Shown: positions 4,416 to 50,015 of the stretch, piece by piece | Layout: the number at the start of each line of letters is the position of its first letter | Position numbering within the stretch: position 1 is the first letter of the stretch | IMG/VR virus record: IMGVR_UViG_3300017764_000001 | DNA: 64,000 bases | Strand: one strand, 5' to 3' | Origin: a virus | Lineage: Duplodnaviria > Caudoviricetes | Program-made: the position numbers and the translations under genes | Notes under the pieces: generated by a model | Told to the model about the DNA's origin: nothing | What the model saw: the letters and a program-made list of their open reading frames with translations, nothing else | The model's database searches: none

Positions 4416-4460
4416 AGTTGAATGGTTACGAAATGTAACGTCTTCTAGACACCCCATAAA

Positions 4461-4552
4461 CCGAGACCTCTAGGGTGTATAAACCACGTCTCTCATACCT
4501 CTACTAAGGGTGTAGAGGAATAGTAACTCCACCATTTCCCTGATGGTCTTAC
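4461..4552 (+). ncRNA. Structured psbA 5' leader, PhotoRC-II-like RNA motif
   Basis: Stems GAGAC/GTCTC, CCTCTAC/GTAGAGG and ACCAT/ATGGT directly upstream of psbA, the position reported for PhotoRC-II in cyanophages. Boundaries approximate. Confidence 0.6.
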
Positions 4553-4568
4553 TTTTTTGTTTAAAACA

Positions 4569-22671: not shown

Positions 22672-22705
22672 TAATCTAAATACTATGAAGGAGGAACTAG
22701 TATAA

Positions 22706-24193: not shown

Positions 24194-24194
24194 G

Positions 24195-26318: not shown

Positions 26319-26349
26319 TGTCCGATAAATATAGGAAAGTAGTAGTATA

Positions 26350-27774: not shown

Positions 27775-27775
27775 G

Positions 27776-30937: not shown

Positions 30938-30959
30938 ATAATGAAAGAGGTAGTATAAT

Positions 30960-32021: not shown

Positions 32022-32024
32022 GTC

Positions 32025-34439: not shown

Positions 34440-34460
34440 ATATGGTAGAGGTATAAAGAT

Positions 34461-35471
34461 ATGAGCAATCTTCCCCCATCAAGAATCCCAAGAGGTGCAA
34501 TAAGATTTAATACTGATAGTAACAAACCAGAACTCTGGGATGGCTCACAGTGGGCAGAGTTTCAGTTAAGCACACCGAATCTTGGTAGGGCAGTTGATAC
34601 TCAACCTGGTGCTCGTGGCATTTTTGCAGGAGGGTCTCCCACAACTGGAGGAGATACTATTGAATATGTAAATATTTCATCAACGGGAGATGCAATTGAT
34701 TTTGGTAATTTACTTGCCACCAAAAAATATGTGGCAGGATGTTCATCATCAACTCGTGGAATAAGTGCTGGTGGTGAACCAGGAACAATTGATGTAATTG
34801 AATTTGTTACGATTGCATCAACAGGAGATGCAGTTGATTTTGGTAATTTAAATAATGGTACTACATATATCAGTGGATGTAGCAGCGAAACAAGAGGAAT
34901 ATTTGCTGGAGGAAAACAACCGGGATTCACAAACCAGATTCAATATATAACAATCGCATCAACAGGTAATGCAAATGATTTTGGTGATTTGACTCAAGCG
35001 AGGGGCAATATTGGTGCTGTTTCTAGTCCTATGAGAGGTGTATTCCAGGGTGGATACACACCAACTAGACAGAATACAATTGATTTTATTACTATTGCAA
35101 CAATTGGAAATGCACAGGACTTTGGTGATTTGACTGGATCAAATGGCAATAATGGTGGAAATCAATCGGGGAGCACCACCAGAGGTTTCTTTGTGGGTGG
35201 TCAACCAGAAACAAATCAAATACAGTATATTACAATTCCAACAGGAGGAAATTCTGTTTTCTTTGGAGAGAGGACTATCTCCAAAGAATATTCTAATTGC
35301 ACTTCTAACAAAATTAGACTTGTTGCTGGTGGAGGACAAACACCGGGTACTACAAATACAATTGAGTATTTTATAATATCAACAGAAGGTAATGCAGTAG
35401 ATTTCGGAGATTTAAATACTGATCAACATCTTTCTGGATCTTGTTTTTCTAATGCTCACGGAGGTCTATAA
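34461..35471 (+). CDS. Array paralogue P7: second-half neck plus propeller, SNAHGGL tail
   Basis: IPRGAIRFNTDSNKPELWDGSQW; ATAAATA at 34436-34442. Confidence 0.8.
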   Translation: MSNLPPSRIPRGAIRFNTDSNKPELWDGSQWAEFQLSTPNLGRAVDTQPGARGIFAGGSPTTGGDTIEYVNISSTGDAIDFGNLLATKKYVAGCSSSTRGISAGGEPGTIDVIEFVTIASTGDAVDFGNLNNGTTYISGCSSETRGIFAGGKQPGFTNQIQYITIASTGNANDFGDLTQARGNIGAVSSPMRGVFQGGYTPTRQNTIDFITIATIGNAQDFGDLTGSNGNNGGNQSGSTTRGFFVGGQPETNQIQYITIPTGGNSVFFGERTISKEYSNCTSNKIRLVAGGGQTPGTTNTIEYFIISTEGNAVDFGDLNTDQHLSGSCFSNAHGGL

Positions 35472-37660
35472 TGGGAATATTACGCACCGATAAAGTTTCA
35501 GGGTTAGAGAAGGAGAAAAGACAGAATCCAAACTTAGTCGTTAATGGTGACTTTAGTGATTCTTCAATTGCCGGTTGGACTGCATATAATGCCGTTGCAA
35601 GTTATGATAGTGGTGCCGGTGGAAGAATTAAAGTTGATGATAGTGCATCAGCAGGTGGATGGAGTAATGCTGCCTATGTAATCAATACAGAACCCGGAGC
35701 ATCATATAGATTTGAAGTTAGAGCTTCGGCAACTGATAGTGATACTCAATTTGTTGGATATTATCAAGGAACTTATGATACTGCCGGGACTGCACCAACG
35801 GTTTATTCATCAGAAATCACCGTTAATCCCTCTGTTCATTATTTTGATCTTATAGCAACGGGTAGCACTGTTACCCTATTGTTGATTGCCAATGGTTCTG
35901 GAGTTGTATATTTTGATGATATTTCATTCAGAAAGACTGATGGAAACTCAATCGGAGGATCTGTTCATTTTGATGGTAATGATCATTTATCTATTGGTAA
36001 TTCAGGAGATTTTAATTTTCTTCACAACGGTGCAACTGATTGGACTGCAGAATTCTGGGCAAAAATGCCCAGTGTAACTCGGGGGCAAGTTTTCGGCACC
36101 GGAGCAAGTAGTGCTCAAACAGGGTTTAGTCTCACTCTTATGTCTGCTGCTGATAATCAAAGTGATGAACCAGGTGTTTTTGCGATGTTTGGTAGAGGGG
36201 CAGCAGGAAACTATAGATATTGGGGAGTAAGTAATGGTCTTTCAATAAATACATGGCATCATATTGCGGCAGTATTTAAGTCCAGTGATAAGACATTAGC
36301 ATTGTATATCGATGGAAGAGAAGTAGATAACGATAGTGGAACGGAAAATGGAACTTTTGGTAGTGGAAATTATTCAACCTCTAATAGTTCATATGCATTT
36401 ATAGTTGGAAAAAATACACATTCTAGTACATTTTTCAAGGGTTACATATCTAATTTGAGGGTTGTTGCTGGACGTAGACTTTACACATCAGATTTTACAC
36501 CACCAGTTCATGCACTAGAACCAATTAATGGAACTAGAATTCTTTGTTGTAATAATCCGGATTCTGTTACTGCCGTGGATAGTGCTTTGATTGGAACTGC
36601 TCATATCAACACATCCTCCGGAAATCCACAAAATTCCACAAAAAATCCAGGTTTTACCAGAGACTTCACATACGGCACAGAGTTTAGGGGTGTCACAACA
36701 TTTGATACGCAAGGATATTTTGTTCCACCATCAGGTACGACAGAACAAAGAGGCAGAGGTCGTGGATTTTTTGCAGGGGGAGGAACTACCCCTAATTACA
36801 CAAATGCAATTGATTTTATTACAATTTCATCTAGTGGAAATGCACAAGATTTTGGTGATTTGACACAAGAAAAACAATCTCTTGGTGGGACAGCAAATTC
36901 TACAAGAGGTATATTTGCAAGTGGATATAATACTCCAGTATTTCCTGCTACTGGTAATAATACTGATAGAATAGAATATATAACAACTGCAACAACAGGA
37001 AACGCACTAGATTTTGGTAATTTAGATTCCGCAATAAGATATGCTTCTTGTGCCGCTAATTCAACAAGAGGTTTAATTGCTGGAGGATACTATCCATCTT
37101 ATATTGATAGAATTGAATATATTACTATCGCATCTCTAGGAGATGCACAAACTTTTGGCACATTGACTGCATCTGCCACCGCAACTGATAAAGCAGGTTT
37201 ATCTTCTCCAACTAGAGCACTATTTGCTGGGGGAGAAAATGGTAGTGGTAATATGACTCTCACAGATTATGTGACTATTGCATCAACTGGCAATGCTCAA
37301 GATTTTGGTGACTTGACAGCAGCACGTAGAAGAGCAGCATCGGCATCAAGTGGAACTAGAGGATTAGTTGCCAATGGTTACAATGGATCTGCATATGTAA
37401 ATACCATCGATTATGTGACCATTGCATCAACAGGAAATGCACAAGACTTTGGTGATACATCACAATCTAGAAGTTCTTCAAAAGGACAAGTTTCCTCAAC
37501 AATCAGAGGAGTTTTTGGTAGTGGAGCAACGCCAAATCTTACAAATACCATCGATTATGTGACCATTGCATCAACTGGTAATGCATCAGATTTTGGTGAT
37601 ACAAATGGATCTCTTTTTGAGCAAGCAGGTTGTTCAGATTCCCATGGTGGTCTCTCATAA
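35471..37660 (+). CDS. Array paralogue P8: CBM4/9-like and LamG-like domains plus propeller, first-half neck, SDSHGGLS tail
   Basis: NLVVNGDFSD...GW beta-sandwich start; WHHIAAVF...LYIDG; FVPPSGTTEQRGRGRG; TAATG overlap with P7. Confidence 0.8.
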   Translation: MGILRTDKVSGLEKEKRQNPNLVVNGDFSDSSIAGWTAYNAVASYDSGAGGRIKVDDSASAGGWSNAAYVINTEPGASYRFEVRASATDSDTQFVGYYQGTYDTAGTAPTVYSSEITVNPSVHYFDLIATGSTVTLLLIANGSGVVYFDDISFRKTDGNSIGGSVHFDGNDHLSIGNSGDFNFLHNGATDWTAEFWAKMPSVTRGQVFGTGASSAQTGFSLTLMSAADNQSDEPGVFAMFGRGAAGNYRYWGVSNGLSINTWHHIAAVFKSSDKTLALYIDGREVDNDSGTENGTFGSGNYSTSNSSYAFIVGKNTHSSTFFKGYISNLRVVAGRRLYTSDFTPPVHALEPINGTRILCCNNPDSVTAVDSALIGTAHINTSSGNPQNSTKNPGFTRDFTYGTEFRGVTTFDTQGYFVPPSGTTEQRGRGRGFFAGGGTTPNYTNAIDFITISSSGNAQDFGDLTQEKQSLGGTANSTRGIFASGYNTPVFPATGNNTDRIEYITTATTGNALDFGNLDSAIRYASCAANSTRGLIAGGYYPSYIDRIEYITIASLGDAQTFGTLTASATATDKAGLSSPTRALFAGGENGSGNMTLTDYVTIASTGNAQDFGDLTAARRRAASASSGTRGLVANGYNGSAYVNTIDYVTIASTGNAQDFGDTSQSRSSSKGQVSSTIRGVFGSGATPNLTNTIDYVTIASTGNASDFGDTNGSLFEQAGCSDSHGGLS

Positions 37661-37681
37661 ATATGGTAGAGGTATAAAGAT

Positions 37682-38707
37682 ATGAGTCTCCCCCCATCAG
37701 AAGTGCCACAAGGTGCAATCAGATTTAATACCGACTCCCAGAGGTTAGAGTTTTATGCTCAGGGGGAATGGTGGATTATGTCTACTGATACTCCTAATCT
37801 TGGAACGAGTGCTGACTCAACTCCTGGTGCTCGTGGATTATTTGGTGGTGGTCACGGACCTTCACCAACTAACGAAGTTAACGAAATAGAATATATCAAC
37901 ATTGCATCAACAGGTAATTCGGTAGACTTTGGTGATCTTCAACAAACAAGACAGGCACTTAGTTCTCTTGGATCATCTACAAGAGGATTTTGGGTAGGAG
38001 GAAGAGATGCGCCAGCTAATTTTGATATTATAGAGTTTGTAACTTTTAGTTCATTAGGAGATAATACAGATTTTGGTAATCTTTCTTCTGCAAAACAAGG
38101 ACCTTTTGGACTTTCAAATGCTACTCGTGGAATATCTGGTGGTGGTAGTTTTACTAACACTGTTGATTATTTTACCATGGCATCAACAGGAACTGTAGCA
38201 ACATTTGGTACTCTCCAACCAACTGGAAAAGGAACTTATCAATCAGCATGTATGACTCCTGTAAGGGGTGTTTATCAACAATCTTTGGGTGCAAACCCAT
38301 ATCCAGGAAATACATATTTGGGTGGTTGCATCATTGCATCACTAGGAGATTTTCAGGATTTTGGTGAGTTATCACAACAAAGAGCAAATTCTGCTAGTCT
38401 CTCAAATGCTACTCGTGGAATATTTGCTGGTGGATATCAACCACTCACATCCTCAATTGAATATATGGAAATTTCGTCCGGAGGAAAGGCATCAAAATTT
38501 GGTGATTTAAGTAATAACAGAAAAGAATTAAATGGAAATTGTACATCCCCAACTCGTGGAGTCATAGCTGGTGGATTAGCAGATTCACATTTTAATCTTA
38601 TTGAGTATGTTAATATTCAAACACAGGGCGATGCAGTGGATTTTGGTGATTTGCTTAATCCAAGAATGTATAAGTCAGGAATATCTAATGCACACGGAGG
38701 GTTGTAA
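37682..38707 (+). CDS. Array paralogue P9: second-half neck plus propeller, SNAHGGL tail
   Basis: VPQGAIRFNTDSQRLEFYAQGEW; ATAAATA at 37657-37663. Confidence 0.8.
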   Translation: MSLPPSEVPQGAIRFNTDSQRLEFYAQGEWWIMSTDTPNLGTSADSTPGARGLFGGGHGPSPTNEVNEIEYINIASTGNSVDFGDLQQTRQALSSLGSSTRGFWVGGRDAPANFDIIEFVTFSSLGDNTDFGNLSSAKQGPFGLSNATRGISGGGSFTNTVDYFTMASTGTVATFGTLQPTGKGTYQSACMTPVRGVYQQSLGANPYPGNTYLGGCIIASLGDFQDFGELSQQRANSASLSNATRGIFAGGYQPLTSSIEYMEISSGGKASKFGDLSNNRKELNGNCTSPTRGVIAGGLADSHFNLIEYVNIQTQGDAVDFGDLLNPRMYKSGISNAHGGL

Positions 38708-38766
38708 AAACCCACATATTATACTATACTAAATACGGTAGTTATTACACTATAGATTGACCTGAT

Positions 38767-39693
38767 ATGACTGAGAAAAGTTCTGCTATTACTTCGGTAG
38801 ATATTACACCAGGTTCAGAAATTTCTGTCACAACGCTTAAGAGTGATCTTGCACAGCTAGCAAGTGGTCCTCTGCCGCAGGAATACAAAGGAATGTTGAC
38901 TCATATCGAGGAAACACTGCCTTCTACTAAAGCAGCATGTGACAACTTCTATAAGTCTCACTCACAGATGATGACTGTGACTTTGGATATCACTGACCTG
39001 ACACCTATTCGTAGTATTAAACATACTCTTGCCGCGATTGAAAGAACAAAGAGTGCCCTTGCAGAGGCACAAATCAATCGTCGTAAGAATGAAATCAAAA
39101 TTAAGAAAAAGCAACGTGAGATCGATGCCGCCGAAGATGATCTTGATCGTGAAGAACTTGAGATCGAGATGATCGAACTCATGAACAACAACATGAACAT
39201 TGAGAACTCAATGAAGGGTGCCATCCGTAAGATGTCCTTCCTGATGACTCAATATCGTTCTGTTCTGGATCACATCGGTAAGGATCATATTACCGAAGAA
39301 GATTATGAACGTGAAGAGAAGCGTTACCATGTAATGACTGCACTGAAGCAGGCACTTAACTCTGCCCGTCCTCGTGGTGGTGTGATTGATGAAGGTAACT
39401 CCATCTATCTGTTTGATATTGGTGTGAATGTTTCACATGCACAGGCAGAAGTCTTCAATTATCTGAAGATGGAGAATGAACTGATTCAGAATGGTCAGGC
39501 ACCTTCACATGAAATGACTGTTGAGTGGTTGGAAAAGTGTGCAGATAAGTTCCAGGATTGTTCGGAACGATTTGCAGAGAGTCGTGGATTCACGATTCTA
39601 GATGAGAAGTCTCTTGCAAAACCCGACTTCCCCACCATGCTCCCATCATCTGTGGATGAAGAGTTTGCCAAACTGAAAGCAGCAGAAGAGTGA
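38767..39693 (+). CDS. Coiled-coil-rich hypothetical protein (308 aa)
   Basis: Long charged heptad-like stretch (ALAEAQINRRKNEIKIKKKQREID...); CTAAATA at 38729-38735. Confidence 0.75.
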   Translation: MTEKSSAITSVDITPGSEISVTTLKSDLAQLASGPLPQEYKGMLTHIEETLPSTKAACDNFYKSHSQMMTVTLDITDLTPIRSIKHTLAAIERTKSALAEAQINRRKNEIKIKKKQREIDAAEDDLDREELEIEMIELMNNNMNIENSMKGAIRKMSFLMTQYRSVLDHIGKDHITEEDYEREEKRYHVMTALKQALNSARPRGGVIDEGNSIYLFDIGVNVSHAQAEVFNYLKMENELIQNGQAPSHEMTVEWLEKCADKFQDCSERFAESRGFTILDEKSLAKPDFPTMLPSSVDEEFAKLKAAEE

Positions 39694-39694
39694 T

Positions 39695-40417
39695 ATGAGT
39701 TTACATCTTGTTATTGGTACTCCCATGTATGGGGGTATGTGTACAAGTGAATATACAGATTCACTTCTCAAACTCTCTGAATCATGTAATAAGTCTAGTG
39801 TTAAACTCACTACCATCTTTCTTGGTAATGAGTCTCTGATTCAACGTGGTCGCAATACAATTGCTCACCACTTTATGAACTTGCCTGATGCAACTCATCT
39901 TCTATTCATTGATGCGGACATCAAGTTCCGTGTTGATGATATTGTGAGGATGATTAGGGCAGACAAGGAACTTATCATCGGTCCTGTTGCATTGAAAGGA
40001 TACAACTGGGATCAGATTCGTATGGCAGCACTTGCTGGTGAAGATAATATCGGACGCACTGGTGGAGTATTCAACATCAATACTCTTCCTGGTATTGAGA
40101 TGCAGAGTGAAGATGAACCATTTGAGATTGAGCATGGTGGTAATGCTTTTATGTTAGTCCGAAAGGATTGTTTTGAAGCACTCGAATCTGTGACTCCCAT
40201 ATATACTAATGGTGGAAGATCTTTACCAGATGGTGTAGAAATTAAAGATTACTTTCGTGTTGAGATAAATAAAGATACAAACCATTTATTATCGGAAGAT
40301 TACTTTTTCTGTCACTCTTATCGACAGATCGGTGGAAAAGTCTGGTGTGCTCCCTGGGTAGAAACTGGACACTTTGGGTCACATCTCTTTAATGGTAAAT
40401 ACACTAGGAACAACTAA
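39695..40417 (+). CDS. GT-A fold (GT2-like) glycosyltransferase
   Basis: TPMYGG, ESLIQRGRN, HLLFIDADI (DxD) and LSEDYFFC...GGKVW motifs. Confidence 0.72.
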   Translation: MSLHLVIGTPMYGGMCTSEYTDSLLKLSESCNKSSVKLTTIFLGNESLIQRGRNTIAHHFMNLPDATHLLFIDADIKFRVDDIVRMIRADKELIIGPVALKGYNWDQIRMAALAGEDNIGRTGGVFNINTLPGIEMQSEDEPFEIEHGGNAFMLVRKDCFEALESVTPIYTNGGRSLPDGVEIKDYFRVEINKDTNHLLSEDYFFCHSYRQIGGKVWCAPWVETGHFGSHLFNGKYTRNN

Positions 40418-40423
40418 TAAAAA

Positions 40424-41200
40424 ATGGCATATCCTCTCATTAAATATACACTGACCATTCATGGTAGGCAACCTGAGTGGTTATGCAAAGAATCAGGAGC
40501 ATTCAAGGGTGAGCACGGTGCTCCCGCAAATAAAGCAGGCAAACTTCCTCGTTTTGGTTCTCCACAAGATACCATTTATTTGGGTATGGGATGTGGTGAT
40601 GTAGATCCTGACGGAACTCCTGATGGATATGTCGGATCTATTTCAAGCAAGGCAGATCTCCAGACATACCTCACTGAAATCGGAACTGCCGCTGGATACA
40701 AAACTATTACAGATACTTTAGTCGGTGTTTCAACTTCTGTGACTGTCGGTCTTTCAACTTCCTGGGAATCTGGTGTTGGTCTGACTACGACCACAACGGA
40801 TAAGGTTACTTATACCGGTGTCGGAACTGTCGTGACAATAACCGGATCTCAAGTTACCAAAGTTATAACCGAAACTTCTGATTCTGAAGGATATACGACT
40901 GTTGATACTCCGATTGTCGTATATCCCGCATCTACCATAACAATTACTGGTGTGACAACATCCGTAGGAGTATCAACAGTTGGTGAGGTTACCACCACAA
41001 CCACGACAACGACATCGGAGTATTCTTATACTGATGCATTCACAAATACTTCTACTTCTAAGTCCGAAACCACCACTGATGGTGTGGCCACCAGAACTGA
41101 TACGGTCACGACTAGTGAGTATGAAAAGTATGAAACATCATATGATTATGCGGCAGAAGCAACTAGACTCTGGGATCTCTATGAGTCTGTCAACTCCTGA
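40424..41200 (+). CDS. Hypothetical protein with a roughly 140-aa Thr-rich (mucin-like) central region
   Basis: About one third Thr between residues ~93 and ~235 by hand count, including T5 and T8 runs. Confidence 0.7.
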   Translation: MAYPLIKYTLTIHGRQPEWLCKESGAFKGEHGAPANKAGKLPRFGSPQDTIYLGMGCGDVDPDGTPDGYVGSISSKADLQTYLTEIGTAAGYKTITDTLVGVSTSVTVGLSTSWESGVGLTTTTTDKVTYTGVGTVVTITGSQVTKVITETSDSEGYTTVDTPIVVYPASTITITGVTTSVGVSTVGEVTTTTTTTTSEYSYTDAFTNTSTSKSETTTDGVATRTDTVTTSEYEKYETSYDYAAEATRLWDLYESVNS

Positions 41201-41241
41201 AACAAAATCGACTTTTAATTCCAAAAAAGTCGGAAAAAAAA

Positions 41242-41273
41242 TTCCGGAAAATTTTTGACCTGTAGGGTTTTTT
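41242..41273. repeat. Intergenic conserved element, copy 1 (TTCCGGAAAATTTTT-N3-CTGTAGGGTTTTTT)
   Basis: 29 of 32 bases identical to 56092-56123; lies just upstream of the sulfotransferase ATG. Confidence 0.8.
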
Positions 41274-41282
41274 GAAAAAATT

Positions 41283-42074
41283 ATGAAATTTTATTTTGAT
41301 TGTGGACTTCCACGCTCAGGATCCACTCTTCTAACGGCAATATTAAATCAAAATCCTCAAATACATGCGGGCACATTGTCTCCTGTGTTTGAGGTTATGT
41401 ATTATACGAACGATATACTTCAGGGAGAACAGGCACAGGCATTTCCTAAACCTGATGTATTTCATAAGATGGTTCGTGATGGTATCATCAACTATTACTC
41501 TGATAGAGATGAACCTATCATCATCGACAAGTGTCGTGCATGGCCTGCACATATTGATCTATTAAAAAAATATGTAACAGATGATCCAAAGATAATCTGC
41601 ACTGTTCGTCATCCACTAGATATATTAGCATCATTTATCACACTCTTTAAAAAAGATGGTGGACTTAACTTTATTGATAAGGCAATGCTCAAGCAAGGAT
41701 TGTTTATTACCGATGATGCACGATGCCACTATATGATGAATCCTGGTGGTATTGTATGGGAAAGTATGAATGCACTTGCGACTGCATTTCGACAAAATCA
41801 GACTCAACATATTCATTTTGTACAATATGATGATCTGGTAAATGACCCAGAGAAAGCACTACAGGGTATTCACTGGTTCTTAAAACTCAAACCATACGAA
41901 TACGATTTTGATAATATAGAAGCAAAAGATAGAGAAAAAGATAAAGAGGTATATGGACTTCCAACAATGCATGAAGTCAGATCAAAAGTAGAGAAAAAAT
42001 CAAGACATTACTCTGAGGTTCTTAGTGAAGAAGTCATAAATAAATATAAGAATATGGATTTCTGGAAACAATAG
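41283..42074 (+). CDS. Sulfotransferase family protein
   Basis: GLPRSGSTLL PAPS-binding loop; IIDKCRAW, VRHPLDILASF and YDDLVNDP motifs. Confidence 0.85.
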   Translation: MKFYFDCGLPRSGSTLLTAILNQNPQIHAGTLSPVFEVMYYTNDILQGEQAQAFPKPDVFHKMVRDGIINYYSDRDEPIIIDKCRAWPAHIDLLKKYVTDDPKIICTVRHPLDILASFITLFKKDGGLNFIDKAMLKQGLFITDDARCHYMMNPGGIVWESMNALATAFRQNQTQHIHFVQYDDLVNDPEKALQGIHWFLKLKPYEYDFDNIEAKDREKDKEVYGLPTMHEVRSKVEKKSRHYSEVLSEEVINKYKNMDFWKQ

Positions 42075-42077
42075 TGC

Positions 42078-43238
42078 ATGTCTGAAGCAAGGATTGACAG
42101 TATCTCAAACGAATCAAATACTGGTGGTCCTGTATTATCCGGAGTCACTGAGTTTTCTGGTCAGCAATATTTTGTACCACCATCTGGAACCACGGCGGAG
42201 AGACCATTCGATTGCCCGCCTGGTTCCATTCGTTTTAATACTGACTCTGCACACCTAGAGTATTGGAATGGAGAAGTATGGTTAGAGTTTGAGGCAAGTA
42301 GTGAAGAACTTGGTGACCAGAATCAAACTAACTCTGCTGGTGGAACAGGACATCGTGGATTAATTGCCGGTGGTTATTCTCCCGCACCTGGCGATCTTGT
42401 AGATAGAATAGAGTATATTTCAATATCAACTCTTGGGAATTCAGAAGATTTTGGTAATTTAGTTGCTGCTACCAGACTTGCAGGCAGTTGTGCCAGTTCT
42501 ACTAGAGGAATCTTTGCGGGTGGTGCTTCACCAGCACCAACAAAAACTAATAAAATAGATGTTGTAACCATAGCATCAACTGGAAATGCATCAGACTTTG
42601 GTAATTTATCGCTTATTAGAAATCAACTTTCTGGTTGCTCTAATCAAACTAGAGGACTCTTTGGTTCTGGTGATGCTCCCGCATCAATTACAAATGTAAT
42701 TGATTATATAACAATCGCATCAAACGGAGATGCAGTAGATTTTGGTGACTTACTTGCTGCTGCCGAACAAACAACATCATGTTCAAATTCAGTCAGAGGA
42801 CTTTGGGCTGGTGGAACTACTCCATCATTCAGCAATGTTATTCAATATGTTACCATTAGCACCACAGGAAACGCACAAGATTTTGGAGATTTGATAACAG
42901 CAAGAAACATTTCTGGATCTTGTTCAAATTCAACTCGTGGTCTATTTGGAGCTGGAAATACTCCCGGCAACGACGCATTAAATTCTATTGAGTTTATTAC
43001 CATTGCATCAACAGGAAATGCACAGGATTTTGGTGATTTAACTGTTGGGAGAAGAGCAGGACAAGCTGCTTGCTCTAGTCCCATTAGAGGGATCTTTGCT
43101 GGTGGTGATGCGGACCCTTTTACTAATGTAATAGATTTTGTCACAATATCAGCAACAGGAAATGCATCAGATTTTGGTGATTTGATAGGCCCAGTATCAC
43201 AGAATTGTGCCTGTTCTAATGGTCACGGAGGGTTATAA
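42078..43238 (+). CDS. Array paralogue P10: intact neck plus propeller, SNGHGGL tail
   Basis: FVPPSGTTAERP...GSIRFNTDSAHLEYWNGEVW. Confidence 0.8.
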   Translation: MSEARIDSISNESNTGGPVLSGVTEFSGQQYFVPPSGTTAERPFDCPPGSIRFNTDSAHLEYWNGEVWLEFEASSEELGDQNQTNSAGGTGHRGLIAGGYSPAPGDLVDRIEYISISTLGNSEDFGNLVAATRLAGSCASSTRGIFAGGASPAPTKTNKIDVVTIASTGNASDFGNLSLIRNQLSGCSNQTRGLFGSGDAPASITNVIDYITIASNGDAVDFGDLLAAAEQTTSCSNSVRGLWAGGTTPSFSNVIQYVTISTTGNAQDFGDLITARNISGSCSNSTRGLFGAGNTPGNDALNSIEFITIASTGNAQDFGDLTVGRRAGQAACSSPIRGIFAGGDADPFTNVIDFVTISATGNASDFGDLIGPVSQNCACSNGHGGL

Positions 43239-43240
43239 TC

Positions 43241-44398
43241 ATGTCAGAATTTAAGGCTTCAGGTTTCCACGACGAATTTGGTAATGCTGGTCCCGATCTT
43301 GTGGGGATCACAACAATGACCTCACCATATTATTTTGTCCCACCATCAGGCACAACAGCAGAAAGACCCAGTAACCCTCCACCAGGGATGTTGAGGTTTA
43401 ATACTGATATTGGAAGACTTGAGGTATGGAGAAACGACCACTGGGCAACGATACTTGGTGAGTCTCCTAATCTTGGTGATCATAATAACACAAACTCTTC
43501 TGGTGGAACAGGAACTCGTGGTGTATGGTCTGGTGGAAGAATTAATCCATCTGGTGGATACTCTGATAGAATGGATTATATTACTGTAGAAACTCTTGGT
43601 AATGCACTAACTTTCGATACATTATCAACAGGAAGAGCATATATTGCTGGATGTGCATCAAGAACCAAAGGGATTCTCTATGGTGGTGCTAATGGACCAA
43701 TCGTAAATACTATTGATAAATTTGTATTTGCTTCAACTGGCAGTAGATCAGATTTTGGTGATACTGTTCCATCTCATGCATCAAATGCTGGTGGTTATTC
43801 CAATGGAACTCGTGGAATATTTGCAGGTATAGCATCTCCATCATGGACCAATAGGATAGATTATATTACTATTGAGTCTGATGGAAGTGCTCAGGACTTT
43901 GGTGATATGATGTACTCGCAATATAATGCTGCTGCATGTGGTTCAAGTGTCCGTGCATTATTTGGTGCAGGTTATCGAAGTCCTGGAACTTATGAGAAAT
44001 ATATTGAATATGTAACTGCTTCAACAACAGGAAACAGTCAAGGTTTTGGTGATTTAACAGCAGATAGTAGAATAAGATCTTCTCTTTCCAATTCAACAAG
44101 AGGTGTATGGTCTGGAGGTTTGAATCCTGGCAACAATATAATTGACTTTGTGACTATCGCATCTACTGGTAATGCACAAGATTTTGGTGACATAATAGCA
44201 AATAGATTTGGTAATACTGGAGGTGCTGCATCAGCAACTCGTGGAGTATGGGGTGGTGGATATTCTGGCAGTGGAGATCGCACTAACCTGATGGAATATA
44301 TCACCATTTCGACAACTGGAAATTCCATAGATTTTGGTGATTTAACTGTGATTAGAGGATATGTTGATAGTGTTTCCAACGGTCACGGAGGTTTATAA
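43241..44398 (+). CDS. Array paralogue P11: intact neck plus propeller, SNGHGGL tail
   Basis: FVPPSGTTAERP...GMLRFNTDIGRLEVWRNDHW. Confidence 0.8.
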   Translation: MSEFKASGFHDEFGNAGPDLVGITTMTSPYYFVPPSGTTAERPSNPPPGMLRFNTDIGRLEVWRNDHWATILGESPNLGDHNNTNSSGGTGTRGVWSGGRINPSGGYSDRMDYITVETLGNALTFDTLSTGRAYIAGCASRTKGILYGGANGPIVNTIDKFVFASTGSRSDFGDTVPSHASNAGGYSNGTRGIFAGIASPSWTNRIDYITIESDGSAQDFGDMMYSQYNAAACGSSVRALFGAGYRSPGTYEKYIEYVTASTTGNSQGFGDLTADSRIRSSLSNSTRGVWSGGLNPGNNIIDFVTIASTGNAQDFGDIIANRFGNTGGAASATRGVWGGGYSGSGDRTNLMEYITISTTGNSIDFGDLTVIRGYVDSVSNGHGGL

Positions 44399-44400
44399 TC

Positions 44401-45546
44401 ATGTCAAGACTTAATGTAGGTAATCTTTATAACGAGAATGAAGATGGAGCACCGGTAGTATCAGGTATCTCTACATTCTCATCACCACACTATTTCATTC
44501 CACCATCAGGTTCAACGGCACAGAGACCTTCAAATCCTGGTGAGGGAATGATTCGTTTCAATACTGATAGTGGTCATCTTGAGTATTACACAGGAACTCA
44601 TTGGGCTGATGTGATTGTTAATAACCAGGAACTTGGTAATCAGTTAGTAACAAACTCTGCTGGTGGAACAGGAACTCGTGGATTGAGAGCAGGTGGACAA
44701 ACACCAAGTGTTACAGACACTATAGATTATGTAACGATTTCTACTCTTGGGAATGCACAAGATTTTGGTAATTTGACTGTATCTAGATTTGCTGTAGGGG
44801 CAGGTGCCTCAAGAACTAGAGGATTATTTTTTGGTGGAGGAACACCAACAAGAAAGAATGAGATTGATTTTGTGACGATTGCATCTACTGGAGATGCAAC
44901 TGATTTCGGAAATCTAACACAAACTTCAACAGCAAGTGGTTCTCAGGGAAGTAATGATACTAGAGCATTGAGGTTTGGTGGAGATACTGGATCTGCTGTG
45001 AATGTAATTGACTATATGACAATAGCATCAACAGGAGATGCAGTAGATTTTGGTGACATATCAACTAACTTATCTGGTGGTGCATCGGTTGCATCTTTAG
45101 TTCGTTGCGTGCTTGCCGGAGGAGACACTGCATCAGATGGAAGTATGATTAATACCATACAATATGTAACTATTTCAACAACAGGCAACACTCAAGAATT
45201 TGGTGATATTCTTTCGGCAAATGGTGGGAAAGGATTATCTAATTCTACTCGTGGTATTTTTAATATGGGAAATCCATCTGCATCCAATGTGCTTCAATTC
45301 ATAACCATTGCATCTACAGGCAATTCCCAAGATTTTGGTGATCTAACTCAAAATAATTTATCTGGTGGAGCTGGATGTTGTTCTTCATCAACTCGTGGAT
45401 TGTTTATGGGAATTAAAACTCCAACAGTTACAAATTCTATAGAATTTATTAGTATTTTAACCACAGGAAATGCATCAGATTTTGGAGATTTAACTCAGAC
45501 AGTAGCCAATAGCGTTGCTTGTTCCAACGGTCACGGAGGACTCTAA
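44401..45546 (+). CDS. Array paralogue P12: intact neck plus propeller, SNGHGGL tail
   Basis: FIPPSGSTAQRP...GMIRFNTDSGHLEYYTGTHW. Confidence 0.8.
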   Translation: MSRLNVGNLYNENEDGAPVVSGISTFSSPHYFIPPSGSTAQRPSNPGEGMIRFNTDSGHLEYYTGTHWADVIVNNQELGNQLVTNSAGGTGTRGLRAGGQTPSVTDTIDYVTISTLGNAQDFGNLTVSRFAVGAGASRTRGLFFGGGTPTRKNEIDFVTIASTGDATDFGNLTQTSTASGSQGSNDTRALRFGGDTGSAVNVIDYMTIASTGDAVDFGDISTNLSGGASVASLVRCVLAGGDTASDGSMINTIQYVTISTTGNTQEFGDILSANGGKGLSNSTRGIFNMGNPSASNVLQFITIASTGNSQDFGDLTQNNLSGGAGCCSSSTRGLFMGIKTPTVTNSIEFISILTTGNASDFGDLTQTVANSVACSNGHGGL

Positions 45547-45571
45547 ATATAACTATGGAGAGTAATATCTG

Positions 45572-46618
45572 ATGACGATTAAACCAGGAGCATTTAGATT
45601 TAATACCGACTCCATGAAGTTGGAGATCTTTCGTGGTAGTACAAACTATAATGGAACTGCTTCAATGGCAGGAATCGGCACACTTGCTGCTGGTCAGTGG
45701 GAAGAAATACAAGCAACGTCACCAGAGGTTCAGACTGGTGGAACTCGTGGTATTTTTGCTGGTGGATTTCCTATCAGTGATGTAATTGATTATATTAATG
45801 TTTCATCAACAGGAAACGCAATAGCATTTGATACTTTAACTAATGGGGCACAAATGATTGGTGCTGGTTGTGGGTCTAGAACAAGGGGATTATTTGGTGG
45901 TCAAACACAACCAACATATGTAAATACAGTTGATGCTGTTGAAATATCATCAACCGGAAGTCAATTTGACTACGGAGACTTATCTGTAGTAAGGGTCTTT
46001 GCTGCCCAATTTTCCAATCAAACTAGGGGAATAACTGCTGGTGGTAATATTACAGGGGGCATTACTTCTACCATTGATTATTTTACAATTGCAACATCAG
46101 GAACAACAGCACAAGATTTCGGTGATTTAATACATGGTGGTGGAGGACAACAAGCTGCTTGTGCATCACCAACCAGAGGGGTGATTATGCGTACAAATGC
46201 TCCAACAAATTCTCTAATGGAGTTTATAACAATATCAACGCAAGGGAATGGAGCAGATTTTGGTGATTCTCATCTTCAACAAGGTGGTGCTGGTGGAGCA
46301 TCAAATGCTATAAGAGGAATATTTGTTGGTGGATATAAATCAACAGCAACAAGTTACAACAATATCTCTTATATAACTATCGCAACACTTGGAAATTCTC
46401 AAGATTTTGGTGATTTAACTGAGAGTGGTGGAGAACTTGCCGGATGTGCAAGTCCAACTAGAATTGCATACGGCACAAGACTATCTCCCGGAAATGGTAG
46501 GGTAAATACAATTCAATATCTTCAAATTATGACTACTGGTAACACCGTTGATTTTGGAGATTTGACTTCGGGTAGAAGTGGTGGTGGTGGAACATCTAAT
46601 GGTCACGGAGGGTTATAA
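45572..46618 (+). CDS. Array paralogue P13: second-half neck plus propeller, SNGHGGL tail
   Basis: Starts IKPGAFRFNTDSMKLE; CTAAATA at 45543-45549. Confidence 0.8.
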   Translation: MTIKPGAFRFNTDSMKLEIFRGSTNYNGTASMAGIGTLAAGQWEEIQATSPEVQTGGTRGIFAGGFPISDVIDYINVSSTGNAIAFDTLTNGAQMIGAGCGSRTRGLFGGQTQPTYVNTVDAVEISSTGSQFDYGDLSVVRVFAAQFSNQTRGITAGGNITGGITSTIDYFTIATSGTTAQDFGDLIHGGGGQQAACASPTRGVIMRTNAPTNSLMEFITISTQGNGADFGDSHLQQGGAGGASNAIRGIFVGGYKSTATSYNNISYITIATLGNSQDFGDLTESGGELAGCASPTRIAYGTRLSPGNGRVNTIQYLQIMTTGNTVDFGDLTSGRSGGGGTSNGHGGL

Positions 46619-47682
46619 TGTCAGAATTTAGAATAGATCAAATCAAAAGTCAAGATGCAACCAGAGGGCCAGATGTAGCAGGTATCACTACATTCACTGG
46701 AACTTCTGGTATTGTAATGCCTTCTGGTGATACTGCCTATCGTGGTGGTAGAGGTCGTGGTGTATTTGGTGGTGGATATGACGCAAGTTCTCCATATCCT
46801 GGACAGCAAGTCATGGACTATGTGACTATTGCAACTCTTGGTAATGCAACTGATTTTGGTGATTTAAGTGTACCAAGATCCTCAAAACCAGGTGGATCTA
46901 GTTCTACAAGAGGACTTTTTATATCAGGAAGAAATCACCCGGTAGCTTACTATAATGTAATCGATTATATTACAATATCCTCAGTAGGTAATGCATTTGA
47001 TTTTGGAGATTTAGTACATAGTTACAACCCAGATCAAAAAGGGTCATCAAATCAAATTAGAGGAGTATATGCTGGTGGATATTTTGATTATGCAACTGCA
47101 GGCAATAAACCAAATCTTTGGTTAGGTGATATTGGATATTATACCATAGCAACAAAAGGAGATTCCTCTGATTTTGGAGAACTTTTAACTAAAGGAAGAA
47201 GAGGACACACAGGATCAAACGGAACTCGTGGAATATGGGCCAATACAAGAGGAGGAACCCCAGGAGAAACTAATATTTGGATTAATGCTATTGAGTATGT
47301 AAATATAATGACTACAGGAAATGGAATTGATTTTGGTGATTCGACCGTAACAAGGTCAAATACTTCTGGAAGTATGACATCATCAACAAGAATGGTGATG
47401 CAGGGTGGACTCGCTCCTGGTTATAATAATACAATTGATTATATAACAATGGCATCATTAGGAGATGCTATTGATTTTGGTGATACAGGTGCGGGTGCTG
47501 AGGCATCAACATCAACATCAAATTCAATAAGAGGAATTTTCACTCCAGGAACACCCTCAGCTGGAAATACAATAGAGTACATAACTATAGCAACTACTGG
47601 CAATTCATCTGACTTTGGCGATTTAAGTTTTGGTAGAAGAACTTATGGATCTCTTTCTGATTCACATGGAGGTCTAGGATAA
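46618..47682 (+). CDS. Array paralogue P14: first-half neck plus propeller, SDSHGGLG tail
   Basis: VMPSGDTAYRGGRGRG; TAATG overlaps on both sides. Confidence 0.8.
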   Translation: MSEFRIDQIKSQDATRGPDVAGITTFTGTSGIVMPSGDTAYRGGRGRGVFGGGYDASSPYPGQQVMDYVTIATLGNATDFGDLSVPRSSKPGGSSSTRGLFISGRNHPVAYYNVIDYITISSVGNAFDFGDLVHSYNPDQKGSSNQIRGVYAGGYFDYATAGNKPNLWLGDIGYYTIATKGDSSDFGELLTKGRRGHTGSNGTRGIWANTRGGTPGETNIWINAIEYVNIMTTGNGIDFGDSTVTRSNTSGSMTSSTRMVMQGGLAPGYNNTIDYITMASLGDAIDFGDTGAGAEASTSTSNSIRGIFTPGTPSAGNTIEYITIATTGNSSDFGDLSFGRRTYGSLSDSHGGLG

Positions 47683-48806: not shown

Positions 48807-48837
48807 ATATTATGAGACACTATAGTCGGAGTAGCTG

Positions 48838-49992: not shown

Positions 49993-50015
49993 ATAATCGT
50001 ATGAGATATTAACAG

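What the first reader, a model, noticed from the sequence alone, without database searches (positions are those of the whole stretch)
38767..42074. Modification cassette sitting exactly between the two nine-gene blocks
Seen: a coiled-coil protein, a GT-A glycosyltransferase, a Thr-rich protein and a sulfotransferase lie at the midpoint of the array, on the same strand, behind a late-type CTAAATA box. Known: GT-A enzymes transfer nucleotide sugars and sulfotransferases use PAPS. Inference: a late-expressed pathway that glycosylates and sulfates virion components (the Ser/Thr/Gly-rich array proteins or the Thr-rich protein), giving a sulfated-glycan-decorated particle. This could mimic marine sulfated polysaccharides or shield the fibres.
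Basis: inference. Interest (0 to 1): 0.75.

Follow-up and report, generated by a model that had tools for sequence, protein, structure and literature searches.

The report
Cyanophage fibre-head glycosylation and sulfation cassette
An uncultured marine T4-like cyanophage carries a tightly conserved four-gene cassette (helper protein, sugar-transferase, threonine-rich protein, sulfate-transferase) inside its array of 18 propeller-type tail-fibre-head genes, and the same enzymes sit next to such propeller genes in dozens of other cyanophages, so they probably decorate those virion proteins with sugars and sulfate, although no chemistry has been shown.

Summary
Four plus-strand ORFs lie at 38767-42074: a helical protein, a GT-A glycosyltransferase, a Thr-rich protein and a PAPS-type sulfotransferase. 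They sit between nine propeller-repeat genes on each side, 32 nt behind a CTAAATA box.

- Twelve related viral contigs keep the order CC-GT-THR-ST inside the arrays.
- The enzymes are under strong purifying selection (dN/dS 0.04-0.14), while the flanking array genes diverge to 35-60% identity.
- The sulfotransferase, the same GT-A family, a P4H-like 2OG oxygenase and a phrog_1409-like protein are interleaved with Kelch-like repeat proteins in other lineages: siphovirus S-SKS1, AG-345-L05, and 40 of 75 further IMG/VR loci.
- RNA-library contigs from three studies cover the cassette, and two end 2-5 nt after the box.

Not shown: the acceptor, the sugar, sulfation itself, or that the propeller proteins are in virions. 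Members of both enzyme families also occur without arrays. The main rival is remodelling of host surface polysaccharide. I found no description of this module in the searched literature. S-SKS1, an isolate recorded on Synechococcus WH7803, makes the hypothesis testable.

The parts
38729..38735 (+). T4-type late-promoter-like box CTAAATA, 32 nt before the cassette's first ATG
   Evidence: A [C/A]TAAATA box is conserved at -32 to -37 in 11 related contigs. RNA-library contigs of two studies end at 38737 and 38740, a weak hint of a 5' end. CTAAATA was described as the late promoter of T4-like phage Aeh1 (PMC1524935).
38767..39693 (+). CC: 308-aa acidic helical protein, possible distant member of phrog_1409. 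Proposed helper or adaptor of the modification enzymes.
   Evidence: No Pfam or NCBIfam hit. phrog_1409 at E 5.9e-6. AF2 pLDDT 56.8, with only the helical hairpin 80-170 confident. Residues 57-280 are almost invariant in relatives. dN/dS 0.04-0.12.
39695..40417 (+). GT-A fold glycosyltransferase (phrog_1574 family), with DxD at D73-A-D75 and a conserved C-terminal His226
   Evidence: dN/dS 0.06-0.14.
40424..41200 (+). Thr/Ser/Val/Gly-rich protein. It has a conserved N-terminal domain (about residues 1-95), a variable-length mucin-like middle and a conserved C-terminal motif. It is specific to this lineage.
   Evidence: No relatives in phage isolates or usable Atlas hits. Length 192-273 aa and identity 35-93% in relatives. 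dN/dS 0.20-0.25.
41201..41282 (+). Optional 80-nt intergenic element (two hairpins, TTCCGGAA palindrome) inserted between the Thr-rich gene and the sulfotransferase gene
   Evidence: 70-93-nt matches (77-89% identity) at intergenic or gene-edge sites in 25 cyanomyovirus records. Present in the window, L011 and L019; replaced by a 6-7-nt spacer in six relatives. No Rfam family.
41283..42074 (+). PAPS-type sulfotransferase (PF13469/PF00685; phrog_27463) with intact 5'-PSB loop (G8-L-P-R-S-G-S-T15) and 3'-PB motif (K103, R109, S117)
   Evidence: dN/dS 0.08-0.14.
22706..38707 (+). Upstream block of nine propeller-repeat (Kelch-like) array genes; proposed substrates or partners
   Evidence: xFGD repeats, C-terminal SDSHGG motif. 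(LamG/CBM domains in the large members). A CTAAATA box at 22676 precedes the first gene.
42078..52258 (+). Downstream block of nine propeller-repeat array genes, starting 3 nt after the sulfotransferase stop
   Evidence: phrog_19111 hit at 4.7e-12. Homologous to the S-SKS1 repeat proteins.
52259..52867 (-). P4H-like 2OG-Fe(II) oxygenase (PF13640), the family that accompanies the sulfotransferase in other phages
   Evidence: Homologues lie next to the sulfotransferase in L022, L024 and L025, and within the 10-kb flanks of it in 39 of 75 loci.
52864..54427 (-). Radical SAM/SPASM enzyme (52864-53793) and a second 2OG-Fe(II) oxygenase (53786-54427), in one convergent operon with the P4H-like gene

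Best explanation
The cassette is this lineage's version of a widespread cyanophage module. In that module, soluble cytoplasmic modification enzymes are genetically locked to Kelch-like propeller 'fibre-head' proteins. The enzymes are a GT-A glycosyltransferase, a PAPS-dependent sulfotransferase, usually a P4H-like 2OG-Fe(II) dioxygenase, and a phrog_1409-like helper.

Proposed mechanism:
1. Late in infection the cassette is transcribed from a T4-type late promoter, together with the array genes.
2. The enzymes act on newly made structural proteins before assembly.
3. The dioxygenase may create hydroxyl groups, the GT-A adds a sugar from a nucleotide sugar, and the sulfotransferase transfers sulfate from host PAPS to a hydroxyl of the protein or its glycan.
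4. The result is a glycosylated and sulfated propeller protein. In this lineage a mucin-like Thr-rich protein may be modified too.
5. The helical CC protein is proposed to be a non-catalytic helper.

Shown: gene identities and folds, intact catalytic motifs, conserved order, purifying selection, conserved promoter box, presence in RNA libraries, and recurrent linkage with propeller genes in independent phage lineages.

Inferred: the acceptor, the order of reactions, the role of CC, late timing, and that the propeller proteins are virion parts.
For: (1) Enzyme identity.
- GT-A fold with DxD.
- Sulfotransferase above Pfam gathering scores, with PAPS-binding motifs invariant in 13 diverse homologues.

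(2) No hydrophobic segment reaches the Kyte-Doolittle 19-residue threshold of 1.6 in any of the four proteins (maximum 1.50), so none looks membrane-spanning. Signal peptides were not tested.

(3) Conserved unit. Twelve IMG/VR contigs keep CC-GT-THR-ST in order inside the arrays. CC, GT and ST stay 73-98% identical, against 35-60% for the array genes. dN/dS is 0.04-0.14 for the enzymes and CC, against 0.3-0.6 for the neighbouring array gene.

(4) Independent recurrence.
- In S-SKS1 the sulfotransferase is flanked on both sides by repeat proteins homologous to the arrays, with a phrog_1409-like protein beside them.
- AG-345-L05 has two sulfotransferases, a phrog_1574 GT-A, a GT-B fused to a domain homologous to the phrog_1409-like protein of S-SKS1, a PF13640 oxygenase and three repeat proteins.
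- Of 75 further sulfotransferase loci, 40 hold repeat proteins, 39 the oxygenase and 38 the GT-A. In 35 the sulfotransferase is directly flanked by a repeat gene. After dereplication at 90%, 26 of 49 hold repeat proteins.
- The same gene set occurs in at least two orders.

(5) The modules lie beside genes matching PHROG tail-fibre and baseplate-wedge families, in the window and in L030, L044 and L081.

(6) Expression.
- The late box is conserved in 11 relatives.
- RNA-library contigs of three studies cover all four genes and bridge the CC-GT, GT-THR and ST-array junctions. Two contigs end at 38737 and 38740, just after the box.

(7) Precedent. Iyer et al. 2010 (PMC2938197) predicted that dioxygenase plus sulfotransferase neighbourhoods modify co-encoded tail-collar and glycine-rich proteins. 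STIV A197, the best structural match, is also encoded by a virus.
Against: - No biochemical or proteomic evidence of any modification.
- No evidence here that the propeller proteins are in virions.
- The acceptor class cannot be read from sequence. The nearest solved sulfotransferases (OLS/CurM, StaL, TPST, HS 3-OST) all match at E of about 0.01 or weaker, and GT-A neighbours span protein and polysaccharide enzymes.
- Both families also occur away from arrays: the sulfotransferase in the S-SCSM1 replication module, the GT-A in replication/recombination regions of Cr30 and the Manatee Spring phages, and 13 'GT-ST' plus 17 'ST only' loci.
- The 75 loci are the best 80 of more than 577 hits, so the fractions are for the nearest relatives only.
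- No PAPS-synthesis gene was found in the window.
- No strongly conserved Pro or hydroxyl site emerged from the repeat profile: 'GG..P' occurs in only 63 of 119 units.
- Homology of CC to the phrog_1409-like proteins is not confirmed by direct profile comparison.
- RNA libraries can contain DNA, and contigs do not prove a single transcript.
Confidence: 0.5

Rival explanations
1. Host surface remodelling. The GT-A and sulfotransferase, with the epimerase, GT11 and GT25 genes at 632-3107, modify host LPS, O-antigen or exopolysaccharide during infection. This could block superinfection or change cell-surface properties. The position inside the arrays would reflect only a permissive, hypervariable insertion site.
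For: - The published view of cyanophage glycan clusters is diversification of outer polysaccharide to pre-empt attachment (PMC7824862, section 3.4.10).
- The window holds a separate epimerase-GT11-GT25 cluster.
- S-SRM01 and ACG-2014f place the sulfotransferase or GT-A beside GT2 and nucleotide-sugar epimerase genes.
- Type II loci hold sugar-nucleotide enzymes and an APS-kinase-like gene.
- There is a weak NoeE (Nod-factor fucose sulfotransferase) match, in the P-loop only.
Against: - No flippase, polymerase, initiating transferase or membrane protein lies in or next to the cassette.
- The enzymes are interleaved one-to-one with propeller genes in many lineages and in different orders, including a siphovirus. 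A neutral insertion hotspot does not explain this.
- A late-type promoter is conserved, whereas host take-over genes are usually early.
Confidence: 0.2
2. Only the Thr-rich protein is the substrate. The cassette makes one mucin-like, O-glycosylated and sulfated protein (a decoration or secreted product), and the array proteins are not modified.
For: - The gene sits between the GT and the sulfotransferase. Its middle is 46% Thr+Ser (34% Thr, 12% Ser), flanked by conserved terminal domains.
- Structural neighbours of the GT include mucin-type ppGalNAc-transferases.
Against: - The Thr-rich protein has no homologue outside this lineage.
- It was not detected by BLAST in S-SKS1, AG-345-L05 or the 40 type I loci, which still keep the sulfotransferase and, in most, the GT-A with propeller genes. 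Low-complexity proteins may escape BLAST.
- The GT-A similarity is at fold level only (TM about 0.5).
Confidence: 0.1
3. No functional link. The four genes are unrelated accessory genes that hitch-hike in a fast-evolving region, or the enzymes act on small molecules, peptides or DNA.
For: - The nearest solved sulfotransferases act on polyketide or glycopeptide substrates.
- A radical SAM/SPASM enzyme and dioxygenases nearby would fit a peptide or secondary-metabolite pathway (PMC2938197).
- GT-A relatives sit in DNA replication modules of Cr30 and the Manatee Spring phages.
Against: - The order is strictly conserved and selection is strongly purifying across deeply diverged relatives, with pS 0.5-0.7 in most comparisons.
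- The same enzyme set recurs with propeller genes in separate phage lineages.
- No precursor-peptide or NRPS/PKS genes were seen.
- No DNA-hypermodification genes lie next to the cassette. thyX is present.
Confidence: 0.1
4. Enzyme-adaptor pairs. The Kelch-like propellers are not substrates but substrate-recognition partners of the enzymes, as Kelch domains are in BTB-Kelch ligase adaptors. Each enzyme would be paired with the propeller gene that follows it.
For: In the canonical module, each enzyme gene (GT-A, sulfotransferase, GT-B plus phrog_1409-like) is followed by one repeat gene, and the ST-REP unit moves as a pair.
Against: - This window has 18 propeller genes for two enzymes.
- The array proteins carry tail-fibre-type N-terminal motifs and LamG/CBM domains and lie among fibre genes.
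- No interaction evidence exists.
Confidence: 0.07

Closest known systems
Dioxygenase-sulfotransferase neighbourhoods with tail-collar or glycine-rich proteins, predicted by Iyer, Abhiman, de Souza and Aravind 2010 (PMC2938197)
   Same: A PAPS-type sulfotransferase is genetically linked to 2OG-Fe(II) dioxygenases and to phage-fibre-like or Gly-rich repeat proteins, which are proposed as the substrates (hydroxylate, then sulfate).
   Different: [quoted passage not shown] Here the setting is a cyanophage structural region, and the partner proteins are Kelch-like propellers. A GT-A (and elsewhere a GT-B) is part of the set. The dioxygenase is PF13640 (P4H-like). No PAPS-synthesis gene is in the window. 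Both cases remain predictions.
STIV A197 (PDB 2c0n), a virus-encoded GT-A glycosyltransferase
   Same: Best sequence-profile match (E 1.3e-4) and best structural match (Foldseek E 1.1e-8). It is a small single-domain viral GT-A with a DxD motif.
   Different: 13% identity and TM 0.5-0.6. It comes from an archaeal virus, with no sulfotransferase partner. My recollection that A197 was proposed to glycosylate the STIV capsid protein is from memory, not checked here.
Collagen-type hydroxylation and glycosylation (LH3/PLOD, ColGalT1; mimivirus R699)
   Same: The GT-A model matches the LH3 and PLOD glycosyltransferase-like domains, ColGalT1 and mimivirus R699. A 2OG dioxygenase works together with a GT-A on a repetitive structural protein.
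   Different: Fold-level similarity only (TM about 0.5, 9-14% identity). The proteins here are separate, not fused. The substrate repeats are Kelch-like, not collagen triplets. Sulfation is not part of the collagen pathway.
Phage virion glycosylation by phage-encoded glycosyltransferases next to structural genes (mycobacteriophages; from memory, not retrieved here)
   Same: Glycosyltransferase genes embedded among late structural genes, with virion proteins as acceptors.
   Different: Different GT families and hosts, with capsid and tail-tube acceptors. There is no sulfotransferase, dioxygenase or propeller array. My literature searches did not retrieve that work, so the comparison rests on recall.
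Cyanophage 'LPS / capsular polysaccharide modification' gene clusters (PMC7824862, section 3.4.10)
   Same: Clusters of several GT families and sugar-nucleotide enzymes in T4-like cyanophages. The window has such a cluster at 632-3107.
   Different: Those clusters are interpreted as acting on host outer polysaccharide. Within the passages retrieved they are not described as interleaved with fibre-head genes, and the terms 'sulfotransferase' and 'kelch' do not occur in that paper.

Membership tests
GT-A fold glycosyltransferases | Single Rossmann-like alpha/beta/alpha GT-A fold | tested here: met
   AF2 pLDDT 96.7, pTM 0.92. Foldseek top hits are 2c0n, LH3, Mnn9 and GalNAc-Ts, all at probability 1.00 and TM about 0.45-0.52 by query.
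GT-A fold glycosyltransferases | DxD metal / nucleotide-sugar binding motif | tested here: met
   F71-I-D73-A-D75. D75 is invariant and D73 is at least 90% conserved in 103 diverse relatives. E201, D202 and H226 are also conserved.
GT-A fold glycosyltransferases | Assignment to a curated family (GT2, GT62/Anp1 and so on) | tested here: inconclusive
   No Pfam or NCBIfam hit for the window protein. 65 of 103 relatives hit Anp1 weakly (best 1.5e-7) and 8 hit Glycos_transf_2.
GT-A fold glycosyltransferases | Transfer of a sugar from a nucleotide sugar to a defined acceptor | not testable with these tools
   Needs an enzyme assay.
PAPS-dependent sulfotransferases (Pfam PF13469 / PF00685) | Profile match above the curated threshold | tested here: met
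   PF13469 at 67.5 bits (cut-off 27); PF00685 at 46.2 bits (cut-off 22).
PAPS-dependent sulfotransferases (Pfam PF13469 / PF00685) | 5'-phosphosulfate-binding loop and 3'-phosphate-binding motif | tested here: met
   G8, L9, P10, R11, G13, T15 and L16 are invariant, as are K103, R109 and S117, across 13 homologues of 25-82% identity. Reading these as the PSB and PB motifs rests on general knowledge of the fold.
PAPS-dependent sulfotransferases (Pfam PF13469 / PF00685) | Acceptor class (protein Tyr/Ser/Thr/Hyp, glycan or small molecule) | tested here: inconclusive
   All PDB sequence matches are at E of about 0.01 or weaker and span OLS/CurM, StaL, TPST and HS 3-OST. The NoeE match covers the P-loop only.
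phrog_1409 (function unknown) | Significant profile match, and homology with the helper protein of the S-SKS1-type module | tested here: inconclusive
   CC hits phrog_1409 at 5.9e-6. 14 of 16 S-SKS1-type proteins hit it too, best 1.4e-7. Direct hhalign of the two alignments gives probability 1.6%, E 0.031, with collinear segments 143-200 and 140-197.
T4-type late promoter | TATAAATA-like box at about -10, upstream of late genes and conserved in relatives | tested here: met
   CTAAATA at 38729-38735. A [C/A]TAAATA box at the same distance in 11 relatives. Further boxes before the first array gene (22676) and before 45572.
T4-type late promoter | Transcript 5' end a few bases downstream; dependence on gp55 | tested here: inconclusive
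   RNA-library contigs of two studies end at 38737 and 38740, one with a fold-back. Contigs cannot prove a start, and timing was not tested.
Mucin-like O-glycoprotein | Long Ser/Thr-rich stretch that carries O-glycans | tested here: inconclusive
   Composition criterion met: 34% Thr and 12% Ser in residues 96-232, with length varying between relatives. Glycosylation is not testable here.
Dioxygenase-sulfotransferase protein-modification neighbourhood (Iyer et al. 2010) | 2OG-Fe(II) dioxygenase adjacent to the sulfotransferase and to a fibre-like or Gly-rich protein | tested here: met
   Adjacent in L022, L024 and L025; present within the 10-kb flanks in 39 of 75 loci. In the window the PF13640 gene lies 10 kb away, at the end of the array.
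Dioxygenase-sulfotransferase protein-modification neighbourhood (Iyer et al. 2010) | Co-encoded PAPS synthesis | tested here: not met
   tblastn of the APS-kinase-like protein of L066 against the window finds nothing. An APS-kinase-like gene is present only in some type II loci.

The most novel reading that the evidence does not exclude
Many marine and freshwater cyanophages carry a portable module for post-translational modification of tail-fibre heads: a P4H-like dioxygenase, a GT-A, a GT-B, a PAPS sulfotransferase and a phrog_1409 adaptor. It would hydroxylate, glycosylate and sulfate Kelch-like receptor-binding propellers. This would be the first case of sulfated phage virion proteins, with the modification tuning host recognition or protecting the fibres. 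In the window's lineage the module has been reduced to a four-gene core, serving an expanded set of 18 propeller genes plus a mucin-like protein.
Probability: 0.35. Interest if true: 0.8.

Novelty: new variant of a known kind. Interest (0 to 1): 0.62.

Why it matters
Protein sulfation is, to my knowledge, unreported for phage particles, and virion glycosylation has been shown in only a few phages. If the module modifies receptor-binding heads, it adds a chemical layer to host-range determination in some of the ocean's most abundant viruses. Thousands of close relatives of the cassette proteins were found in public genome and metagenome protein collections. It would also draw on host PAPS and nucleotide sugars during infection.

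The comparative result is concrete and testable. The same enzyme families are locked to propeller genes in S-SKS1, a phage isolate recorded on Synechococcus WH7803. Virion sulfo- and glycoproteomics or [35S] labelling could therefore settle the question directly.

Tried and rejected
- Megablast of 20 kb of the window against phage isolates found no match. The lineage is uncultured.
- No whole genome is held for the window, so a genome-wide search for PAPS or sugar-nucleotide genes was impossible.
- tblastn of CC and of the Thr-rich protein against 50,697 phage records found no match.
- ESM Atlas returned only unnamed viral clusters for CC and nothing usable for the Thr-rich protein.
- The AF2 model of CC is low-confidence (pLDDT 56.8). 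Its BFVD search gave no match at E of 1e-3 or better; the top hits are uncharacterised proteins including one from S-ShM2. I drew no functional conclusion from it.
- Direct HMM and hhalign tests of CC against the S-SKS1-type helper were not significant.
- Complex prediction of GT-A with CC gave no answer (score 0.00). This is neither for nor against binding.
- A conserved Pro after the Kelch 'GG' doublet, considered as a P4H target, is present in only 63 of 119 repeat units. I dropped it as a specific site.
- Rfam has no family for the 41201-41282 element.
- Cluster look-up of GT-A relatives gave no informative names.
- tblastn of GT-B, P1409, APS-kinase-like and type II proteins against the window found nothing.
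- Parts of the stretch without RNA-contig cover are not interpreted.
- Literature searches for phage or cyanophage sulfotransferases, virion sulfation and P4H plus GT in cyanophages found no description of this module.

Full report
**Context.** The window is from an uncultured T4-like cyanomyovirus.
- It carries a PhotoRC-II element (4436-4531, 77.7 bits) in front of the 363-aa ORF at 4557-5648, the position where psbA would be expected (not checked).
- It also carries thyX, gp32, and large proteins matching PHROG tail-fibre and baseplate-wedge families.
- It has no close relative among 50,697 phage records.
- Thousands of 86-99% identical proteins occur in public genome and metagenome protein collections.

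**Observation.** ORF listing gives four plus-strand genes at 38767-39693 (CC), 39695-40417 (GT), 40424-41200 (THR) and 41283-42074 (ST).
- They are separated by 1, 6 and 82 nt. The first downstream array gene follows after 3 nt.
- A motif count over all long ORFs shows nine genes at 22706-38707 and nine at 42078-52258 with xFGD repeats and a C-terminal S[DN]xHGG[LI] motif. The cassette genes have neither. '9 + 9' is therefore correct for this window.
- The two blocks also differ in kind. Upstream are large LamG/CBM-bearing proteins alternating with small ones. Downstream are uniform 344-402-aa proteins. The cassette thus marks a boundary rather than only a midpoint.
- CTAAATA lies at 38729-38735.
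- Its total count in the window (8) is below the chance expectation. But all eight copies are on the coding strand, six lie 27-62 nt before a start codon, and one precedes the first array gene.

**Gene identities.**
- ST is a sulfotransferase by Pfam (PF13469 2.6e-18, PF00685 5e-12). Alignment with 12 homologues down to 25% identity keeps the G-L-P-R-x-G-x-T-L loop and the K...R...S motif invariant. I read these as the PAPS 5'-phosphosulfate and 3'-phosphate sites.
- GT has no Pfam hit, but it belongs to phrog_1574 and to a very large family: 5,602 clusters at E of 1e-3 or better.
- With 102 diverse relatives, AF2 gives pLDDT 96.7 for GT.
- Foldseek places the GT model among GT-A enzymes: STIV A197, the LH3/PLOD GT domains, Mnn9, ppGalNAc-transferases and ColGalT1.
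- D73-A-D75 is the DxD motif, and 65 of 103 relatives weakly match Anp1.
- THR has a conserved N-terminal domain, a Thr/Ser/Val/Gly-rich middle that varies by about 80 residues between relatives, and a conserved C-terminal motif. It has no relatives outside the lineage.
- CC is an acidic helical protein. Only a helical hairpin is confidently modelled. Its one database link is a weak hit to phrog_1409.
- None of the four proteins has a hydrophobic segment that looks membrane-spanning.

**Conservation.**
- Twelve IMG/VR contigs, with ST 73-94% identical, keep CC-GT-THR-ST in this order inside propeller arrays.
- Two ENA assemblies keep GT-THR-ST in the same place, preceded by a 240-aa ORF (CC homology not tested).
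- CC, GT and ST remain 73-98% identical. THR falls to 35-84%, and the array genes to 35-60%.
- Nei-Gojobori estimates give dN/dS of 0.04-0.12 (CC), 0.06-0.14 (GT), 0.08-0.14 (ST), 0.20-0.25 (THR) and 0.32-0.63 (first downstream array gene). Synonymous sites are near saturation.
- The cassette is therefore a conserved island in a fast-evolving region.

**Co-occurrence test.**
- In isolates the ST family occurs in S-SKS1, S-SRM01 and S-SCSM1.
- In siphovirus S-SKS1 it is flanked on both sides by proteins with about 50-residue repeats homologous to the arrays (BLAST 1e-17; phrog_19111). Beside them lies a 278-aa protein that also hits phrog_1409.
- In AG-345-L05 (Kyanoviridae) a 15-kb stretch holds three repeat proteins, two sulfotransferases, a phrog_1574 GT-A and a PF13640 oxygenase directly before the second ST. 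It also holds a GT-B fused to a domain homologous to the S-SKS1 phrog_1409-like protein.
- A profile scan of IMG/VR with 13 sulfotransferases returned the best 80 of more than 577 hits.
- Among the 75 new loci, 40 hold repeat proteins, 39 the oxygenase, 38 the GT-A, 32 a GT-B and 29 the phrog_1409-like protein.
- The ST is directly flanked by a repeat gene in 35 loci. After dereplication at 90%, 26 of 49 hold repeat proteins.
- The canonical order is GT-REP-ST-REP-GTB-P1409-REP-OX3. A second order places the ST-REP pair after GTB-P1409-REP.
- The gene set is thus kept while its order changes, which is what selection for linkage would give.
- These modules lie next to genes matching PHROG tail-fibre families.
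- Thirteen loci have GT-A plus ST without repeat genes. In the type II loci inspected, the pair lies beside large structural or baseplate-like genes. In L066 it lies with sugar-nucleotide enzymes and an APS-kinase-like gene.
- S-SCSM1 has the ST in its replication module, and Cr30 has the GT-A between recombination and clamp genes.
- The link with propeller genes is therefore frequent and recurrent, but not obligate.

**Expression.**
- A [C/A]TAAATA box sits 32-37 nt before the CC start in all 11 relatives examined, within otherwise diverged spacers.
- CTAAATA is the reported late promoter of T4-like phage Aeh1 (PMC1524935).
- Contigs from RNA libraries of three marine studies match the cassette, several with no mismatch. 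They bridge the CC-GT, GT-THR and ST-array junctions.
- Contigs from two studies end at 38737 and 38740, one with a fold-back. No contig in these runs crosses 38718-38737.
- This is only a weak hint of a 5' end, because such libraries can contain DNA.
- The 82-nt THR-ST spacer is an optional insertion, present in the window, L011 and L019 and replaced by 6-7 nt in six relatives. It resembles intergenic sequences of 25 cyanomyovirus records. It is not needed for the cassette.

**Interpretation.**
- The simplest reading is that the cassette modifies structural proteins, above all the propeller proteins, in the cytoplasm before assembly.
- The regular partnership of the ST with a P4H-like dioxygenase matches a published prediction. 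In the window that gene is at 52259-52867, in a convergent operon with a radical SAM/SPASM enzyme and a second dioxygenase.
- That prediction is that dioxygenase and sulfotransferase pairs hydroxylate and then sulfate co-encoded fibre-like or Gly-rich proteins (PMC2938197).
- I put this explanation at 0.5.
- The main rival, at 0.2, is the published view that cyanophage glycan clusters remodel host outer polysaccharide (PMC7824862). The separate epimerase-GT11-GT25 cluster at 632-3107 fits that view better than the cassette does.
- The acceptor class cannot be read from the sequences.
- No conserved target residue emerged.
- The role of CC is open.

**Novelty.** Virus-encoded glycosylation of structural proteins is a known kind of system. 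I did not find a phage module joining a sulfotransferase, GT-A, GT-B and P4H-like dioxygenase to Kelch-like fibre heads in the searched literature. I class it as a new variant of a known kind. Its function is unproven, and a cultured test system, S-SKS1, is available.

Noticed in passing
window 41201-41282 (also reported at 56092-56123): An 80-nt A/T-rich element with two hairpins and a TTCCGGAA palindrome. It matches intergenic or gene-edge sites in 25 cyanomyovirus records (77-89% over 70-93 nt), next to unrelated genes. Within this lineage it is an optional insertion between the Thr-rich and sulfotransferase genes. No Rfam family matches. It may be a mobile terminator/promoter-like cassette.
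   Followed up: partly
window 632-3107: A second glycan gene cluster lies upstream of the ORF at 4557: an NAD-dependent epimerase/dehydratase (632-1516), GT11 (fucosyltransferase family, 1513-2316) and GT25 (2301-3107). It could supply or extend the glycan used by the cassette, or act on host polysaccharide.
   Followed up: partly
L024 14202-16040 (AG-345-L05); L044 12715-15294: A GT-B (Glycos_transf_1) glycosyltransferase is fused to a domain homologous to the phrog_1409-like protein of S-SKS1 in AG-345-L05. The same two parts are separate adjacent genes in many IMG/VR loci. This fusion suggests that the phrog_1409-like domain works with a glycosyltransferase.
   Followed up: partly
L026-L100 (IMG/VR), e.g. 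L044 7497-17817: Canonical eight-gene module GT-A / REP / ST / REP / GT-B / P1409 / REP / P4H-like oxygenase. Each enzyme gene is followed by one roughly 610-aa Kelch-like repeat gene, and the ST-REP unit occupies two alternative positions.
   Followed up: partly
L066 7095-12030, L081 6742-11994, L092 7068-10891: 'Type II' clusters lack propeller genes: GT-A, a GT2/methyltransferase-like protein, a 300-aa unknown, the sulfotransferase and a 90-aa protein. In L066 and L081 there is also a 284-286-aa P-loop protein; for L066, Pfam shows APS-kinase-like plus cytidylyltransferase-like matches. The clusters sit between a giant structural/tail-spike-like protein (PHROG matches for L081) and, judging by N-terminal sequence only, baseplate-like genes. 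They may represent phage-encoded PAPS supply.
   Followed up: partly
window 22706-52258 and 52864-53793: All 18 array proteins end in a conserved S[DN]xHGG[LI] motif, often followed by G or GGF. A radical SAM/SPASM enzyme, a type that often matures peptides, is encoded immediately after the array. The C-terminal motif might be its target.
   Followed up: no
window 38718-38740: RNA-library contigs from two independent studies end at 38737 and 38740, 2-5 nt after the CTAAATA box. A contig covering the upstream gene ends at 38718. This is consistent with a late transcript starting there.
   Followed up: partly
window 4436-4531 and 7829-8752: A PhotoRC-II RNA motif (77.7 bits) lies directly upstream of the 363-aa ORF at 4557-5648, the position expected for psbA (not checked). 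An AIR-synthase-related (purM-like) gene is at 7829-8752. Both are typical cyanophage auxiliary features.
   Followed up: no
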